In this document: piece after piece, positions 9,214-62,194 of the stretch | Layout: each line of letters opens with the position of its first letter | Position numbering within the stretch: the first letter of the stretch is position 1 | From: Anolis carolinensis | Lineage: Eukaryota | DNA: 64,000 nt | Direction of reading: 5' to 3' | Assembly (NCBI RefSeq): GCF_035594765.1 | Contig: NC_085841.1 | Location: 233,399,326-233,463,325 of the forward strand | Notes under the pieces: model-generated | The model's input: the letters and a program-made list of their open reading frames with translations, nothing else | What the model was told of the DNA's origin: nothing | The model's database searches: none | Position numbers and translations under genes: made by a program

Positions 9214-9216
<3 letters not shown>

Positions 9217-10272
9217 GAGTTTGGTTTGGACAAATGTTCGACAGTGGCATTGAAGAAGGGAAAAATCATTGAAAGTGAGGGCATAAATATGCCCAATGGC
9301 CAAACAATAAAGTGTCACCAGCCAGAGGCCTATAAATATCTGGGCATATTGCAACTGGACAACATAAAGCATGAACATGTGAAAACTGTGGTCAGCAAAG
9401 AATACACACAAAGGGTCAGAAAAATTCTCAAAAGCAAGCTCAATGGAGGCAACACCATCAAGGCCATAAACACCTGGGCCATACCTGTCATAAGATATAC
9501 TGCTGGCATCATAAACTGGACACAGATGGAACTGGACAATTTGGACAGAAAAACAAGAAAACTCATGACCATCCATCATTCACTGCACCCTCGCAGTGAT
9601 GTTGACCAGCTCTATCTACCTAGAAGATCAGGGGGCAGAGGACTCTTACAAGTAAAACAAGCAGTCAAAGAAGAAGAACATGCCCTGGCAGAATATGTAA
9701 AGCAAAGTGAAGAACCTGCTTTGATTGAAGTCAAAAATCAGAAACTCCTCAAAGCACAGCAGACAAAAAACCAGTACAAGAAAGCCACACTACAAACTAG
9801 ATCTGACAGCTGGCACAAAAAAAACACTGCATGGAAAGTTCCCTGACAAAATTGAAGGAAAAGCTGATAAGGAGAAGACCTGGCTCTGGCTCACGAATGG
9901 GACCCTGAAGAAGGAGACAGAAGGCCTGATCCTTGCAGCCCAGGAGCAAGCCATCAGAACAAATGCAATCAAGGCCAAGATCGAAAAATCAGCTGATGAC
10001 CCAAAATGCAGACTGTGCAAGGAAACCGACGAAACCATTGATCATATCCTCAGCTGCTGTAAGAAAATTGCACAGACAGACTACAAACAGAGGCACAACT
10101 CTGTGGCCCAAATGATTCATTGGAACTTATGCCTCAAGTACCACCTCCCTGCAATAAAGAACTGGTGGGATCACAAACCTGCAAAGGTTGTGGAAAATGA
10201 GCACGCAAAGATACTGTGGGACTTCCAAATCCAGACTGACAAAGTTCTGGAACACAACACACCAGACATCAC

Positions 10273-10643
10273 TGTCAGGCTCACTTCAAAGGACCAGTCT
10301 GAACGCAGATCAAAGATAGCTGCTCTCAAATTCAATCTTTATTGAAGAATACATGACTTTGGAAAAGTCGAGAATGACCTAATGTTTACATACATCTAAT
10401 TTTATCACTTCTGATGCAACGTAATATCACACGCAAATATCATCATCAAACCCCACCTTCGGGATCATATTTCTACCATGATTTCTATTCCCACACACTA
10501 CAGCAATTATAATTGTTTATACTTTCAACTCTGAGTTCCCAGGCTCATTTTATCTTCTCCCGCCAGGTGCTTGCAGGATTGTTTATGTTATGAAGTCAGA
10601 TTCAGGGCTTGGAAATTCAGCCCTGGAATCTGGCTCCATGACA
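10273..10643 (-). repeat. 3' LTR of the Gypsy element
   Basis: Direct repeat of 15594-15964; TG...CA ends; AATAAA on the minus strand. Confidence 0.96.
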
Positions 10644-10695
10644 TGGCGCCCTCGTTTTCTTCGTCCTCCTCTTCGGTTCTTCTTTCATCATAGTT
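10588..10695 (-). CDS. Predicted second coding exon of a spliced gag mRNA (NYDERRTEEEDEENEGAMSWSQIPGLNFQALNLTS*)
   Basis: Preceded by acceptor ttattgtttgatttgtttcAG (AG at 10697-10696); phase 0, matching donor CTG|GTGAGT at 13911/13910; open for 35 codons through the PPT into U3. Predicted, not observed. Confidence 0.6.
   Translation of the reverse strand, partial: NYDERRTEEEDEENEGAMSWSQIPGLNFQALNLTS
10644..10690 (-). promoter_or_regulatory. Polypurine tract region
   Basis: gaaagaagaaccgaagaggaggacgaagaaaacgagggcgcca immediately upstream of the 3' LTR on the element sense strand. Confidence 0.7.
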
Positions 10696-10718: not shown

Positions 10719-13700
10719 CTATGTGTCCATTTTGTCCAAAGTCCCCATATACTTTTTCAGTAAGCTGCGATGGAATACTGGGTGTATTTTCCCTAAACTT
10801 TTTGGCAATGCCAACTGGAAAGTCACTTCATTGATAACACCCTGTATTCTGAATGGTCCAATATATTTGGGGCCCAGTTTTCTTGAAGGTAGCCCCAATT
10901 TGATGTTTTGGGTACTTAACCACACTAGATCCCCTTTATTTAATTTATCGCCTTCCACCCTCTTTCTGTCTGCGAACGCTTTATACTTTTTGTGTGCTTC
11001 CTTTAAGGATGCAGTCACTTGACTCCAGCATTCTAGCATTTGCGTTTTCCACTTCCCTGCCTCTGTTTCCTCATTTTCTGTCCACCTTGGCAACTGGGGT
11101 AAAGGCTGTATTTCATACCCGTAAACTACTTCAAAGGGGGTTTTATTTGTTGCTGAATGTATAGTTGAATTAAAGGCTAGTTCCGCAAAAGCCAACCACC
11201 TAGACCAGTCATTTTGTCTCATGTTAGAGTACATTCGAAGGAACTGCCCAAGCGTTTGCTGAGTACGTTCTACCGCCCCGTTTGTCATGGGGTGAAAAGC
11301 AGAACTTAGACTCCTTTCTGCTCCTAGCATTTCCAAGAATTTTTCCCAAAATTTTGCTGTGAACTGTACTCCTCTGTCACTGACTACTCTACTGGGACAT
11401 CCATGTAGTTTGTAAATATGATTTATGTACAATTCAGCTAGTTTCTCAGCCGATGGTAGTTTCGTCAGCGCTATAAAGTGGGCCTGTTTAGGAAACAGGT
11501 CTAATACTGTCCAAATATAACGATGTCCTTTGCTAACCGGCAGTTCTCCCACAAAGTCCATAGCTACACATTCCCAAGGTCTGGTAGGTTCCGCTACTGT
11601 TTGTAACAATCCCATAGGCTTCCCTCCTCCCGATTTATTTCTGGCACAATCATCACATTGAACAACATGATTCTTTATGTCCTTCCTCATTCCTGGCCAC
11701 CAACAATGTTTTACTATTGCCTTTGTTGTTTTTGTAATTCCTGTATGACCAGCGCTCTGGTTGTTGTGAAAACGATGCAGAATCTTAATCCTTAATATTG
11801 CTGGGATATACAGTTTCTTGTTCACAAACCAAAATCCCCCCTTCTGTTCCCCCTTTTCTGCGTTGGACGCGATCCATTGATCTCCTTCATAAGACTGTTT
11901 CAGTTCATTTCCCCAGTTTTCTTCCCCGCCGAGTTCAACAAAAGTCGTGTCCTCCTTTTGGGTTTGTGCTCTTGTCCTGACAGCTAAGCCCCATTGTTTG
12001 TCAGAGAATATTGTCCCCTCTTTTGCTGTGGTTATGCCTTCGTGTTGAGGCATGCGTGAAAGAGCATCTGCCAAGACATTCTGTTTCCCTTGAAAAAACT
12101 TTAATTGGAAATCGAATCTGCTGAAGTATTGCGCCCATCTAATTTGTTTGGGGGACAATTTTCTAGGAGACTTTAAATACTGTAGGTTCTTATGGTCAGA
12201 CCAAATTTCAAATGGGATTCCGCTTCCTTCGAGGAAGTGTCGCCAGCATTCTAAGGCTTTTAATATGGCTAATGCCTCTTTTTCCCATATTGGCCAACTT
12301 TTCTCAGTTTCGCTGAACTTCCGTGACAAATATCCACAGGGTTTTAAGTTCCCATTTTGATCTTTTTGCAATAGTACTGCCCCATACGCACAGTCTGAGG
12401 CATCGCAATGGATTATGAAAGGGCTCCTGATATCGGGGTGTTTTAGGATGGGTCCTTCAGTGAAGCATTCTTTTAAGGTTTCGAATGCCTTTTGGCATTC
12501 TGGCGTCCAACTCAGTTTGGCGCCAGGTGCTTTCACTTTTGCTGTCTCCCCTTTCCCTTTTGTTTTTAAAAGTTCTGTAAGGGGTGCGGTTATTTGCGCG
12601 AAGCCTTTTATGAAGGGTCTGTAAAAATTTGCAAACCCCAGAAATGATTGTAATTGCCTCCTTGTTTGAGGCACTCCCCATTCTTTCACATCTGCTACTT
12701 TAGCTGGATCCATAGCTAACCCTTCTGGAGATATCCGATACCCCAGAAAGTCAATTTGAGTTTTATTAAATTCACATTTGGACAGTTTTGCGTACAGCTT
12801 TGCTTCTCTTAGTCTCTGCAAAACTTCCCGGACCAATTTTACGTGCTTTTCCTTATCTTCAGTTACAATCAAGATATCATCAAGAAATATGAATACCCCT
12901 CTGTACAATAACGGGTGTAGTATTTCATTTATAAGCTGCATAAAGCAGCCGCCTCCGTTTTTTAACCCGAAAGGCAAAATTTCATATTCAAAATGGCCGA
13001 ATGCGCAGGAAAATGCAGTTTTCCAAGTATCCTCCGGTTTGATCCTTAATTTATGATACGCTTCAATTAAATCCAGTTTAGTAAATATGCTCCCTTTCTT
13101 CAATACGGTAATTAAATCCTTGACTAAGGGCATAGGGTATTTATTGTCCTTAGTAATTGCGTTTAAATTTCGATAATCAATGCACAATCTTAGGGAGTTG
13201 TCTTTCTTTCTCCTAAATAACACTGGGGCCCCGAGAGGAGAATTGGATGGCTTAATGAAGCCTCGCGCCAGGTTTTTATCAATGTATTTCCTCAATTCCT
13301 CCTTCTCCTGCACAGACATGGGATACACTTTTGGTTTGGGTAAGTTTGCTCCTGGGGTTATTTCAATTTCTACTTCTATATTCCTTTTGGGAGGCAATTT
13401 ACTGGCCTCTTTCTGATTGAAAACATCCACAAAGTCTCTGTATTCAGGTGGCAATAGCTGTGGGTCTATTTCCCCTGCTTCATCTTCCTCGTCCTCCTCT
13501 TCTGCAATTTTGCTTATCTCCCATTGCATCTGCTGTTCTTTGAATGCTAGGCTTTTTCCTCTCCAATCTACTTCAGGATTTGCCTGTTCGAGCCATGGTA
13601 TCCCTAATATTACGTGGTATGTGGCAATAGGGGCTATCACAAAGGATATTCTTCCTTCCCATTTGCCTATTTTACATGGGATTCCCCGTATTTCCTTTGT

Positions 13701-15539
13701 AGACACTTCCCCAGTAGCGACTGATCCATCTAGCTGCGAAAATGCAATTGGGGAGTCAAGCGCCATCTGCTGGCATTTCAGCGCTCCTGCTAACTCCGGG
13801 GTTATAATATTTCTAGAACACCCACAATCCACAAATGCCTTGCAGGTGGCCCGATTTTCTAGCCCCGAGAGGCAGATTGGCACTACTATCATGCGTTTGT
13901 CCCGACTCACCAGTTTTTCTGAAGATTCTGGGGCCTGCACCTCCTCTTCCGCGCGCCTCCCGGTTGCTGGCTTGGGCTTTGGGGCTTTTGGCGGCTCCCC
14001 CTTCCGGGCCCAGCATTCTGCTGCTCGATGGCCCGTCTTCCCACATACAAAGCATCCCGGTTTAGGTTTGTTGTCGTCTCCTCTGGAGGGAATCCCCGGC
14101 CTCCCTCCGGGTCTTTCCTGCTTCCTCGTTTCTCCTCGACCTCTCGCCACCGGTCTTTGCTGGCCGCTGCCGCTCCTGAAGCGCTTTACTTGGGCCAGGG
14201 TGGATTCGACGCGCCCCGCTAGTTGAATCCATCCCTGGAGCGTTTCGGGGTCGTCTCTGTGCGCTGCCCAGCTGAAAATCTCGGGGCGTAGTCCCTCTTT
14301 AAATAATTCCACTTTGGTCACTTCAGACCATTCTGGTACCCTTTCCGCGAGGTGAAGGAATTCCTCTGCGTACTCGGGCACTGTTTTGTCCCTCTGCTTT
14401 ATTCCTTTCAGCTGGTCTCGAGCCCTCAATTGCTCTAGCCGGTCTCTGAACCGGTTTTCCAGTGCGGCGAGGAAGCGGGGCACTGACCTCAGGCATGGGT
14501 CGCGTCTGGCATGAAGCTGCACATACCAGCTGGCTGCTCCTCGCTTTAGTGTGTTGCCGATGGCTCGAACCCTGCTTGCCTCGGAGGGGAATGTGTGTGC
14601 ATTGTCTTCCATGTATCCTCTGATGCTAATTAGAAAAAAGTTCAGTTCATCTGATTCCCCTCCGTATTCTAGTTTGAGATCTTCCCTTCTAGGCATCCAT
14701 TCTGCAGCCCGTTGATGCTGTCTGGGAGGCATGGGGAAGGGTTGCATCAGGTTTCCTCGGGCGGCTCCTTGGAACACGCCGCGCCCCACTCCGGTGGTCA
14801 TTCTGCGCGGCTCCCGAAAGTCTGCCGCCGCTGTCGGCTCTTCCGCCCATCCGCATACTGGCCTTGCTGTAGCCCCCTCGTCTCGCCTTTCTTCGTCGTA
14901 CGGCACATCCTCCTCCTCTTCCTGGATCCCCCGCTCCTCTCCGCCTTCGTCTGCAAATCCACTGGACCCGATCCCTGGCCCCAGTGGCCTTTCCACCCCG
15001 ACGCCCATTCGGGGGGTTGGAAGCTCTGTTGGAGATGGCGGCTTCAGAGTTCCCAGGGCTCGCTGACGCTCCACTTCTCGCGCCATTCTGTCCCGGAACT
15101 CCAGCTCCCGCCAGTATTCCTCATCTCCCTCGTCCCTTGCCGCCACGGGACTCTGCGTTGACGCTCGCTGGCCCCTCTGGCTCCAATCTCCTTCTTTACT
15201 TGGTTCTCTCTCGGCGCCATATCGGCTGGGCTCCTTTTGGAGATTCTCTTCCAATAATGGCACCAATCTCCCCACGGTTTCCGACAACCTGGATAAATTA
15301 GTTTCCAGGATGGATAACCGCAGGGCCACGGTCTCCGGCATACTTCCTCCAGATCCCCAACTGGTTTCTGCAGCCGCAGAGACGCCTCTTCCTCCCCTGG
15401 GAATTCTCTGGGTCACGCCGTTCGGCCTGGGGTACCCCGTAGAGGAAGCTATGGCTTGCAGCGTTTCTTCTCCCTTCGGCCGGGCCCCTTGCAAAGGCCT
15501 CTCTGCCCCATTTGGGCTTTGATCTCCTCCTTCACTCAT
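10719..15539 (-). CDS. gag-pol: Gag-Pol polyprotein, 1606 aa from first ATG (MSEGGDQ...)
   Basis: Coiled-coil LSILETNLSRLSETVGRL; retrotransposon Gag (GAASWY...QRDKTVPEYAEEF...FKEGL); CCHC CFVCGKTGHRAAEC; protease AFVDCGCS; RT LRLCIDYRNLN...FLDDILI; RNase H CDASD...EKEALAI...SDHKNL; integrase HHCC (H-x6-H...CDDC), DDE (MDFV, SDRG, VERT), GPF module; no stops or frameshifts. Confidence 0.95.
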   Translation of the reverse strand: MSEGGDQSPNGAERPLQGARPKGEETLQAIASSTGYPRPNGVTQRIPRGGRGVSAAAETSWGSGGSMPETVALRLSILETNLSRLSETVGRLVPLLEENLQKEPSRYGAEREPSKEGDWSQRGQRASTQSPVAARDEGDEEYWRELEFRDRMAREVERQRALGTLKPPSPTELPTPRMGVGVERPLGPGIGSSGFADEGGEERGIQEEEEDVPYDEERRDEGATARPVCGWAEEPTAAADFREPRRMTTGVGRGVFQGAARGNLMQPFPMPPRQHQRAAEWMPRREDLKLEYGGESDELNFFLISIRGYMEDNAHTFPSEASRVRAIGNTLKRGAASWYVQLHARRDPCLRSVPRFLAALENRFRDRLEQLRARDQLKGIKQRDKTVPEYAEEFLHLAERVPEWSEVTKVELFKEGLRPEIFSWAAHRDDPETLQGWIQLAGRVESTLAQVKRFRSGSGQQRPVARGRGETRKQERPGGRPGIPSRGDDNKPKPGCFVCGKTGHRAAECWARKGEPPKAPKPKPATGRRAEEEVQAPESSEKLVSRDKRMIVVPICLSGLENRATCKAFVDCGCSRNIITPELAGALKCQQMALDSPIAFSQLDGSVATGEVSTKEIRGIPCKIGKWEGRISFVIAPIATYHVILGIPWLEQANPEVDWRGKSLAFKEQQMQWEISKIAEEEDEEDEAGEIDPQLLPPEYRDFVDVFNQKEASKLPPKRNIEVEIEITPGANLPKPKVYPMSVQEKEELRKYIDKNLARGFIKPSNSPLGAPVLFRRKKDNSLRLCIDYRNLNAITKDNKYPMPLVKDLITVLKKGSIFTKLDLIEAYHKLRIKPEDTWKTAFSCAFGHFEYEILPFGLKNGGGCFMQLINEILHPLLYRGVFIFLDDILIVTEDKEKHVKLVREVLQRLREAKLYAKLSKCEFNKTQIDFLGYRISPEGLAMDPAKVADVKEWGVPQTRRQLQSFLGFANFYRPFIKGFAQITAPLTELLKTKGKGETAKVKAPGAKLSWTPECQKAFETLKECFTEGPILKHPDIRSPFIIHCDASDCAYGAVLLQKDQNGNLKPCGYLSRKFSETEKSWPIWEKEALAILKALECWRHFLEGSGIPFEIWSDHKNLQYLKSPRKLSPKQIRWAQYFSRFDFQLKFFQGKQNVLADALSRMPQHEGITTAKEGTIFSDKQWGLAVRTRAQTQKEDTTFVELGGEENWGNELKQSYEGDQWIASNAEKGEQKGGFWFVNKKLYIPAILRIKILHRFHNNQSAGHTGITKTTKAIVKHCWWPGMRKDIKNHVVQCDDCARNKSGGGKPMGLLQTVAEPTRPWECVAMDFVGELPVSKGHRYIWTVLDLFPKQAHFIALTKLPSAEKLAELYINHIYKLHGCPSRVVSDRGVQFTAKFWEKFLEMLGAERSLSSAFHPMTNGAVERTQQTLGQFLRMYSNMRQNDWSRWLAFAELAFNSTIHSATNKTPFEVVYGYEIQPLPQLPRWTENEETEAGKWKTQMLECWSQVTASLKEAHKKYKAFADRKRVEGDKLNKGDLVWLSTQNIKLGLPSRKLGPKYIGPFRIQGVINEVTFQLALPKSLGKIHPVFHRSLLKKYMGTLDKMDT

Positions 15540-15579
15540 TATCACTTCACTGCGAATTCCGCAGGAGGGTGAGAAATGG

Positions 15580-15591
15580 ATTCTCGACTTT
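15580..15591 (-). promoter_or_regulatory. Self-priming primer-binding site (non-tRNA)
   Basis: Sense AAAGTCGAGAAT, 2 nt downstream of the 5' LTR, is the exact complement of ATTCTCGACTTT at 15696-15685 inside the LTR. Confidence 0.8.
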
Positions 15592-15593
15592 AA

Positions 15594-15964
15594 TGTCAGG
15601 CTCACTTCAAAGGACCAGTCTGAACGCAGATCAAAGATAGCTGCTCTCAAATTCAATCTTTATTGAAGAATACATGACTTTGGAAAAGTCGAGAATGACC
15701 TAATGTTTACATACATCTAATTTTATCACTTCTGATGCAACGTAATATCACACGCAAATATCATCATCAAACCCCACCTTCGGGATCATATTTCTACCAT
15801 GATTTCTATTCCCACACACTACAGCAATTATAATTGTTTATACTTTCAACTCTGAGTTCCCAGGCTCATTTTATCTTCTCCCGCCAGGTGCTTGCAGGAT
15901 TGTTTATGTTATGAAGTCAGATTCAGGGCTTGGAAATTCAGCCCTGGAATCTGGCTCCATGACA
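15594..15964 (-). promoter_or_regulatory. 5' LTR with TATA-like box, initiator and poly(A) signal
   Basis: Sense GATAAAA (15727-15721), Inr-like TCA+1TTCT (predicted TSS 15696) 31 nt downstream, AATAAA at 15664-15659. Confidence 0.75.
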
Positions 15965-16380
15965 CATCACAGTTGTAGAAAAGAACAAGGTTTGGATCAT
16001 TGATGTTGCCATCCCAGGTGACAGTCACATTGATGAAAAACAACAGGAAAAACTCAGCCGCTATCAGGACCTCAAGATTGAACTTCAAAGACTCTGGCAG
16101 AAACCAGTGCAGGTGGTCCCGATGGTGATGGGCACACTGGGTGCCGTGCCAAAAGATCTCAGCCGGCATTTGGAAACAATAGACATTGACAAAATTACGA
16201 TCTGCCAACTGCAAAAGGCCACCCTACTGGGATCTGCACGCATCATCCGAAAATACATCACACAGTCCTAGACACTTGGGAAGTGTTCGACTTGTGATTT
16301 TGTGAAACAAAATCCAGCATATCTATCTTGTTTGCTGTGTCATACAACGTCGTTGTGTCAATAATAATAATAATAATAAT

Positions 16381-62063: not shown

Positions 62064-62194
62064 NNNNNNNNNNNNNNNNNNNNNNNNNNNNNNNNNNNNN
62101 NNNNNNNNNNNNNNNNNNNNNNNNNNNNNNNNNNNNNNNNNNNNNNNNNNNNNNNNNNNNNNNNNNNNNNNNNNNNNNNNNNNNNNNNNNNNNN
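62064..62194. other. Assembly gap (131 N)
   Basis: Run of N. Confidence 1.

What the first reader, a model, noticed from the sequence alone, without database searches (positions are those of the whole stretch)
15580..15727. tRNA-independent self-priming signature
Seen: after the 5' LTR (...CCTGACA) comes TT-AAAGTCGAGAAT rather than TGG. Those 12 nt are perfectly complementary to ATTCTCGACTTT, which starts at the A of an initiator-consensus TCA+1TTCT, 31 nt downstream of a GATAAAA box and upstream of AATAAA. Established: S. pombe Tf1 primes minus-strand synthesis with its own first 11 nt after RNase H cleavage, and the same complementarity is known in the Tf1/sushi group. Inference: this element folds its first ~117 nt back on itself and self-primes.
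Basis: partly seen in the sequence, partly recalled or inferred. Interest (0 to 1): 0.7.

Follow-up and report, generated by a model that had tools for sequence, protein, structure and literature searches.

The report
Self-priming lizard Tf1/sushi-type retrotransposon
A young, intact jumping gene in a lizard genome has no tRNA landing site but a 12-letter match to the predicted start of its own RNA, and related families keep that match with different letters, so it likely starts copying itself with its own RNA, a trick already known for this group.

Summary
An intact Ty3/gypsy element (identical 371-bp LTRs, one 1606-aa ORF, 6-bp TSD) has TT-AAAGTCGAGAAT after the 5' LTR, complementary to ATTCTCGACTTT in the LTR; 1 of 20,000 shuffles reaches 12 nt. 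Five further lineages in the same genome carry their own, different 11-nt pair, each behind a pyrimidine-purine step and about 30 nt behind an AT-rich box; 95 of 99 delimited copies match their own LTR by 10 nt or more, with mirrored variants inside families. This is the known Tf1/sushi self-priming signature, reported for vertebrate members; only the family-level evidence in this lizard is new to my searches. Not shown: start site (no raw RNA reads), RNase H cut, host tRNA exclusion. The primer is probably 11 nt, not 12. Two side results: this chromodomain-less clade makes mostly 6-bp duplications (45 of 57) while its relatives make 5 (34 of 34), and the four bases behind the primer site are the most variable nearby, a possible scar of primer copying. 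The scan noted similar signatures earlier in BEL/Pao and copia elements of other genomes.

The parts
15594..15964 (-). 5' LTR, 371 bp, TGTCA...TGACA
   Evidence: identical to the 3' LTR (0 mismatches)
15721..15727 (-). GATAAAA, TATA-like box at -31 from the predicted start (weak in this family alone)
   Evidence: (6/8, 27.5% of LTR windows as good; stronger boxes at the same place in 4 of 6 lineages)
15685..15696 (-). predicted self-primer, first 11-12 nt of R; predicted start site A15696
   Evidence: start site inferred, not mapped
15595..15678 (-). predicted R-U5 rod inside the primer duplex; R +19..+34 pairs with the U5 end
   Evidence: 3 pairs with changes on both sides in the two inner helices across A/A2/B
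15659..15664 (-). AATAAA polyadenylation signal at +33 (used in the 3' LTR copy)
   Evidence: (same place in A/A2, +36 to +39 in C and F; B has AGTAAA there)
15592..15593 (-). TT spacer between LTR and primer site (TTA if the primer is 11 nt)
   Evidence: 2 nt in most copies of all lineages, 3 nt in 5 of 17 A2 copies
15580..15591 (-). primer-binding site AAAGTCGAGAAT, no TGG
   Evidence: (present in 30 of 30 loci)
10719..15539 (-). single gag-pol ORF from the first ATG, 1606 aa: capsid, CCHC, protease, RT, RNase H, integrase, SH3; no chromodomain
   Evidence: RT-RNase H region 100% identical to a UniRef protein of Anolis carolinensis
10644..10690 (-). purine-rich tract before the 3' LTR (putative PPT)
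   Evidence: function inferred from position
10273..10643 (-). 3' LTR
15965..15970 (.). 6-bp target site duplication, copy next to the 5' LTR (GTGATG on the minus strand)
10267..10272 (.). 6-bp target site duplication, copy next to the 3' LTR

Best explanation
This is an intact, recently inserted Ty3/gypsy retrotransposon whose primer site is complementary to a stretch of its own LTR, and it likely primes reverse transcription with the first 11 (perhaps 12) bases of its own RNA, as Tf1 does. Steps: transcription is predicted to start at A15696 (inferred from position, not mapped); the 5' end is predicted to pair with the primer site and close a 117-nt hairpin with an inner R-U5 rod (folding plus covariation shown); the element's RNase H would cut behind base 11 or 12 and free a 3' end (inferred from Tf1); RT would then copy the 2-3 nt spacer, U5 and R; plus-strand synthesis would copy the primer back into the primer site and overrun it by a few untemplated bases, which would explain the variable bases right behind the site (inferred); integration leaves a 6-bp duplication (shown).
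For: No TGG and a 12-nt complement, 1 of 20,000 shuffles. All 30 loci of the family keep both halves. Six lineages have six different pairs, own match 11/11, cross-lineage 2-9/11. 95 of 99 copies with delimited ends match their own 5' LTR by 10 nt or more, starting 0-3 nt behind the LTR. Mirrored variants inside families: C (L062), E (L086-L088), D (L075, two changes; 3' LTR against PBS). Between A and B two primer pairs change on both sides, none breaks. In 6 of 6 lineages the match begins at a pyrimidine|purine step, and in 4 of 6 a TATA-like box in the top 5% of LTR windows lies at -30 to -32. The +1..+4 window behind the primer site has the most haplotypes of 25 windows in 5 of 5 families (alone in B, tied in four; Fisher-combined p about 0.012, noticed after the fact). 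RT, RNase H and integrase domains are whole. Self-priming is proven for Tf1 (11 bases, RNase H cut between 11 and 12) and reported as common to the Tf1/sushi group including vertebrates (passages).
Against: No start-site data: only contigs were available. Host tRNAs were not compared. The TATA-like box is weak in the window's own family and in C. Only two of the three duplexes of the Tf1 'pretzel' are supported: the leader behind the primer site pairs with the LTR no better than shuffles (63 of 200 as good in family A; not significant in any of 11 copies tested). 4 of 99 copies fail the 10-nt test (L073 and L103 have one mismatch, L131 a small duplication in the spacer, L104 was mis-delimited). 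Covariation may be templated (primer copied into the site) rather than selected; it shows contact during replication, not that no other primer is ever used. The tree is a quick one and holds no named Tf1 or sushi-ichi sequence.
Confidence: 0.9

Rival explanations
1. A host tRNA, half-tRNA or other small RNA primes at this site, and the LTR complement only forms a regulatory hairpin (dimerisation, packaging or poly(A) masking).
For: The leader does fold into a stable rod that hides AATAAA in part. Half-tRNA primers exist in copia elements (passage). Host tRNAs were not compared here.
Against: No TGG in any lineage; six unrelated site sequences and within-family variants track the LTR, not a conserved host RNA; the match is 11 nt and starts 2 nt behind the LTR in nearly all copies, the Tf1 geometry.
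Confidence: 0.05
2. Self-derived primer, but not the Tf1 route: transcription starts elsewhere (upstream), or the primer comes in trans from the second packaged RNA or from a short LTR transcript, or is released by a host nuclease.
For: Start site and cut are unmapped; the third pretzel duplex is not supported; lineage E must bridge about 700 nt between primer and site.
Against: The 5' edge of the match coincides with a pyrimidine|purine step about 30 nt behind an AT-rich box in all lineages; folding closes the duplex in cis with pair probability 0.92-0.98 in all 10 copies folded, E included.
Confidence: 0.05
3. Chance inverted repeat.
For: None beyond the short length.
Against: 1 of 20,000 shuffles; unique among 4,930 internal positions; repeated independently in five other lineages.
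Confidence: 0.005

Closest known systems
Tf1/Tf2 of Schizosaccharomyces pombe (self-priming proven) and Tj1 of S. japonicus
   Same: [quoted passage not shown]
   Different: 2-3 nt spacer between LTR and site, whereas the Tf1 PBS sequence follows the LTR end directly (implied by passages); Gag has a CCHC motif that the fission-yeast elements lack; no chromodomain; 6-bp TSD; leader-side pretzel duplex not supported.
Vertebrate Tf1/sushi chromoviruses, GyDB V-clade (sushi-ichi, Amn-ichi from Anolis carolinensis, Amn-ni, Amn-san)
   Same: Same host as Amn-ichi (Piskurek et al., title seen in the reference list); RT groups with squamate and fish chromodomain-bearing sequences; self-priming described for vertebrate members (Butler et al. 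2001 as cited).
   Different: Amn-ichi is described as chromodomain-containing, so it is probably one of the sister lineages C, D or F, not this family (inference; its sequence was not seen); here gag and pol are fused in frame, while non-yeast members mostly use -1 frameshifting (seen in sister lineages C and D); chromodomain lost; 6-bp TSD.

Membership tests
Ty3/gypsy (Metaviridae) | LTRs TG..CA, domain order gag-PR-RT-RNase H-IN | tested here: met
   best solved-structure matches are Ty3 RT
Tf1/sushi group (fungal/vertebrate chromoviruses) | RT phylogeny inside the fungal/vertebrate chromovirus branch, apart from plant chromoviruses | tested here: met
   nested in a squamate clade (100) beside fish chromodomain-bearing and fungal rows (99), plants outside; quick tree, 38 chosen protein rows plus 11 loci, no named Tf1 or sushi reference
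Tf1/sushi group (fungal/vertebrate chromoviruses) | primer site complementary to about 11 nt of the own 5' LTR, no tRNA-type TGG | tested here: met
Tf1/sushi group (fungal/vertebrate chromoviruses) | the complement is the 5' end of the RNA | tested here: inconclusive
   indirect only (TATA-like box and pyrimidine|purine step); no raw RNA reads
Tf1/sushi group (fungal/vertebrate chromoviruses) | three-duplex 'pretzel' around the primer site (as described) | tested here: inconclusive
   primer duplex and U5-end duplex supported; leader-side duplex no better than shuffles
Tf1/sushi group (fungal/vertebrate chromoviruses) | RNase H cut releases the primer | not testable with these tools
   RNase H domain present; activity untested
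Chromoviruses in the strict sense | chromodomain at the integrase C-terminus ('usually' present) | tested here: not met
   absent in A, A2, B and E; present in D and F (above cut-off) and C (E 5e-4, below cut-off): a secondary loss inside the branch, so filed by phylogeny and priming, not by this domain

The most novel reading that the evidence does not exclude
Within one lizard genome a clade of self-priming elements (this family, A2 and B) lost the chromodomain and shifted its integrase stagger from 5 to mostly 6 bp, with B caught in between (4, 5 and 6 bp), and the variable bases directly behind the 11-nt primer site are a heritable scar left when RT copies the self-primer to its capped end. 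Together these would give a natural series for how integrase spacing changes and a genomic way to read off the primer's 5' end without RNA data.
Probability: 0.4. Interest if true: 0.5.

Novelty: new member of a known kind. Interest (0 to 1): 0.27.

Why it matters
Self-priming has been proven only in yeast; in vertebrates it rests on sequence complementarity. Six coexisting lineages with different, mirrored primer/site pairs in one lizard genome strengthen that inference but do not change the picture. The 5-to-6-bp shift between relatives about 60% identical in RT, and the apparent scar behind the primer site, are small additions that a retroelement specialist could use.

Tried and rejected
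Start-site mapping: no RNA holder on record, all listed runs are contigs; laying four of them showed no place where many molecules begin or end; no evidence either way. Viral contigs held no relative. A global alignment of 16 leaders from five lineages misaligned the primers and gave no structure; only the 10 A/A2/B rows were used for pair counts. The first variability script caught reverse-strand LTR matches in B and D and was redone (replaced; rows used: A2 14 of 20, B 29 of 30, C 14 of 17, D 8 of 11, E 17 of 17; C is confounded by a T run). No matching excess of variation at the predicted cut (+12) or start inside the LTR. Leader-side pretzel duplex not supported. Host tRNA comparison not done; the window itself holds no tRNA gene, which says nothing on the question. 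A spliced primer, as noted for BEL/Pao elements elsewhere in the scan, is not needed: the match is contiguous. Integrase alignment of six lineages showed no single obvious cause of the 6-bp spacing, and lineage E lacks the chromodomain yet makes 5-bp duplications, so chromodomain loss alone does not explain it. The careful tree did not finish; the quick tree is reported. Primary papers were not held (Lin and Levin 1997 and 1998, Levin 1996, Atwood-Moore 2006, Esnault and Levin 2015, Piskurek et al.); Butler et al. 2001 was seen only as a citation.

Full report
What is there. The finding lies at the 5' end of an LTR retrotransposon on the minus strand: LTRs at 15964-15594 and 10643-10273, 371 bp, identical, flanked by a 6-bp duplication. 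One open frame (1646 codons stop to stop, 1606 aa from the first ATG at 15539) encodes capsid, CCHC, protease, RT, RNase H, integrase and SH3, without a chromodomain. Its RT-RNase H part is 100% identical to a UniRef protein labelled Anolis carolinensis. A DNA search of the own genome gave 1,931 candidates, of which the 40 scored were 99-100% identical: a young, large family. It is inserted into the 3' part of a non-LTR retrotransposon on the plus strand.

The observation. The complement is exactly 12 nt. One of 20,000 dinucleotide shuffles of the LTR reached 12 nt, and of 4,930 internal positions only the one behind the LTR does. The 137-nt leader folds with the 12 pairs as closing helix, z -2.9. 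All 30 loci returned keep both halves.

Covariation. I took Anolis and other squamate relatives from a protein search as queries into the own genome and fetched 117 stretches. Seven had no LTR pair and 11 had unclear ends; 99 were scored. They fall into six lineages by RT identity to the window: A (100%) with sister A2 (94-95%), B (80%), C (61%), F (63%), D (56%), E (45%). Each has its own 11-nt pair: ATTCTCGACTT, ATTCTTGGCTT, AGTAAAAGCTT, AGTAGTGTTAT, ATTCAGTACAA, GCGTTGGGCAA, each the exact complement of the bases that follow its own LTR after a short spacer; across lineages only 2-9 of 11 match. 95 of 99 copies match by 10 nt or more; the four failures are two single mismatches, one spacer duplication and one mis-delimited copy. 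Variants inside families are mirrored: L062 in C, L086-L088 in E, L075 in D. Among 10 A/A2/B leaders, two primer pairs and three pairs of the inner rod change on both sides; these rows are related, so the shuffle control there is not a probability.

Is the match the RNA's 5' end? Not mapped: the run index offered contigs only. Indirectly, in 6 of 6 lineages the match begins at a pyrimidine|purine step, and an AT-rich box lies at -29 to -32; scored against the recalled consensus TATAWAWR it is in the top 5% of LTR windows in B, D, E and F but unremarkable in A (27.5%) and C (40%). A second hint: the four bases right behind the primer site show the most haplotypes of 25 windows in all five families tested (alone in B, tied in the others; combined p about 0.012, noticed after the fact, C confounded by a T run), and the first base there is C in five of six lineages. 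Tf1 cDNA often carries the copied primer site as a single-stranded 3' end with untemplated additions (passages of PMC11042837), so such a scar is what copying a short primer to its end would leave; a C opposite the cap is my inference.

11 or 12. The mode is 11 nt with a 2-nt spacer. A2, the closest sister, has 11 nt with a 2-nt (10 of 17) or 3-nt (5 of 17) spacer, and the primer is followed by a run of U, so the twelfth pair in the window's family may be a spacer base that happens to pair. Undecided, 11 more likely.

Structure. Tf1 needs three duplexes, the 'pretzel' (passage of bioRxiv 10.1101/2022.12.06.519325). Here the primer duplex and a duplex of the U5 end with R are supported; a duplex of the leader behind the site with the LTR is no better than shuffles in any of 11 copies.

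Placement and prior knowledge. A quick RT-RNase H tree of 49 rows nests the element in a squamate clade beside fish chromodomain-bearing and fungal rows, apart from plant rows (no named Tf1 or sushi sequence was in hand). Passages read: PMC7175516 (Tf1: first 11 bases, RNase H cut between 11 and 12), PMC4600332 (implicated from fungi to vertebrates), PMC6317226 (self-primers described in the Tf1/sushi group from yeast and vertebrates; same in-silico test), PMC2774666 (V-clade; Amn-ichi from Anolis, title only), PMC3601003, PMC2864245, PMC3035444 (not used). No supplements were read; preprint supplements were not available and may hold further examples. Searches for self-priming with lizard and gypsy (0 papers), with Anolis (no paper on it listed), for Amn-ichi (2 papers) and for 6-bp TSD with gypsy and vertebrate (0; nothing on point in the listings) found no description of these families, but the key papers (Butler 2001, Piskurek 2009) are not in the library and repeat databases were not searchable, so absence from print is not shown.

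Side result. Duplications are 6 bp in 15 of 16 A copies with a clear TSD plus the window copy, 13 of 15 in A2 and 16 of 25 in B (7 of 5 bp, 2 of 4 bp), against 5 bp in 34 of 34 copies of C, D, E and F; copies with no or ambiguous TSD (8 of 99) are left out. A, A2 and B form one clade, so this is one evolutionary event, not 57. In plants 6-bp TSDs were 0.4% of 13,566 elements. The clade also lacks the chromodomain, but so does E, which makes 5 bp.

Verdict. Real, and most likely the known Tf1-type self-priming mechanism in a lizard member of the group where it is expected. New member of a known kind; modest interest, raised slightly by the clean six-lineage covariation and the two side results.

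Noticed in passing
window 10267-10272 and 15965-15970; loci L039-L155: The clade A/A2/B makes mostly 6-bp target site duplications (45 of 57; B mixed 4, 5, 6) while lineages C, D, E, F make 5 bp (34 of 34).
   Followed up: partly
window 15576-15579 and the same place in loci of A2, B, C, D, E: The four bases behind the primer site are the most variable window nearby in 5 of 5 families, often starting with C: possible scar of primer copying and second strand transfer.
   Followed up: partly
L079-L095 (lineage E): LTRs of about 1.15 kb put roughly 700 nt between self-primer and primer site, yet the 11-bp duplex is predicted with probability 0.97-0.98; this lineage also lacks the chromodomain and its ORF ends inside the 3' LTR.
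   Followed up: partly
L057 versus L060 (lineage C); window ORF 10719-15659: Gag and pol are in different frames in L057 (and in D) but fused in one frame in L060, and always fused in the A, A2 and B copies looked at: frameshift and single-ORF forms coexist.
   Followed up: no
window about 9215-10272 and 15965-16360, plus strand: The element sits inside the 3' part of a non-LTR retrotransposon (zinc-finger match, PD...D endonuclease-like motif split by the insertion, AAT-repeat tail); the name R4/Dong-like is recalled, not tested.
   Followed up: partly
L104, L094: In L104 the repeat runs on past the 3' LTR into leader sequence, and three hits near L094 are spaced about 13.7 kb apart: tandem or duplicated copies, as described for integrase-independent Tf1 insertion; not examined.
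   Followed up: no
window 62064-62194: One run of N, far from the finding.
   Followed up: no
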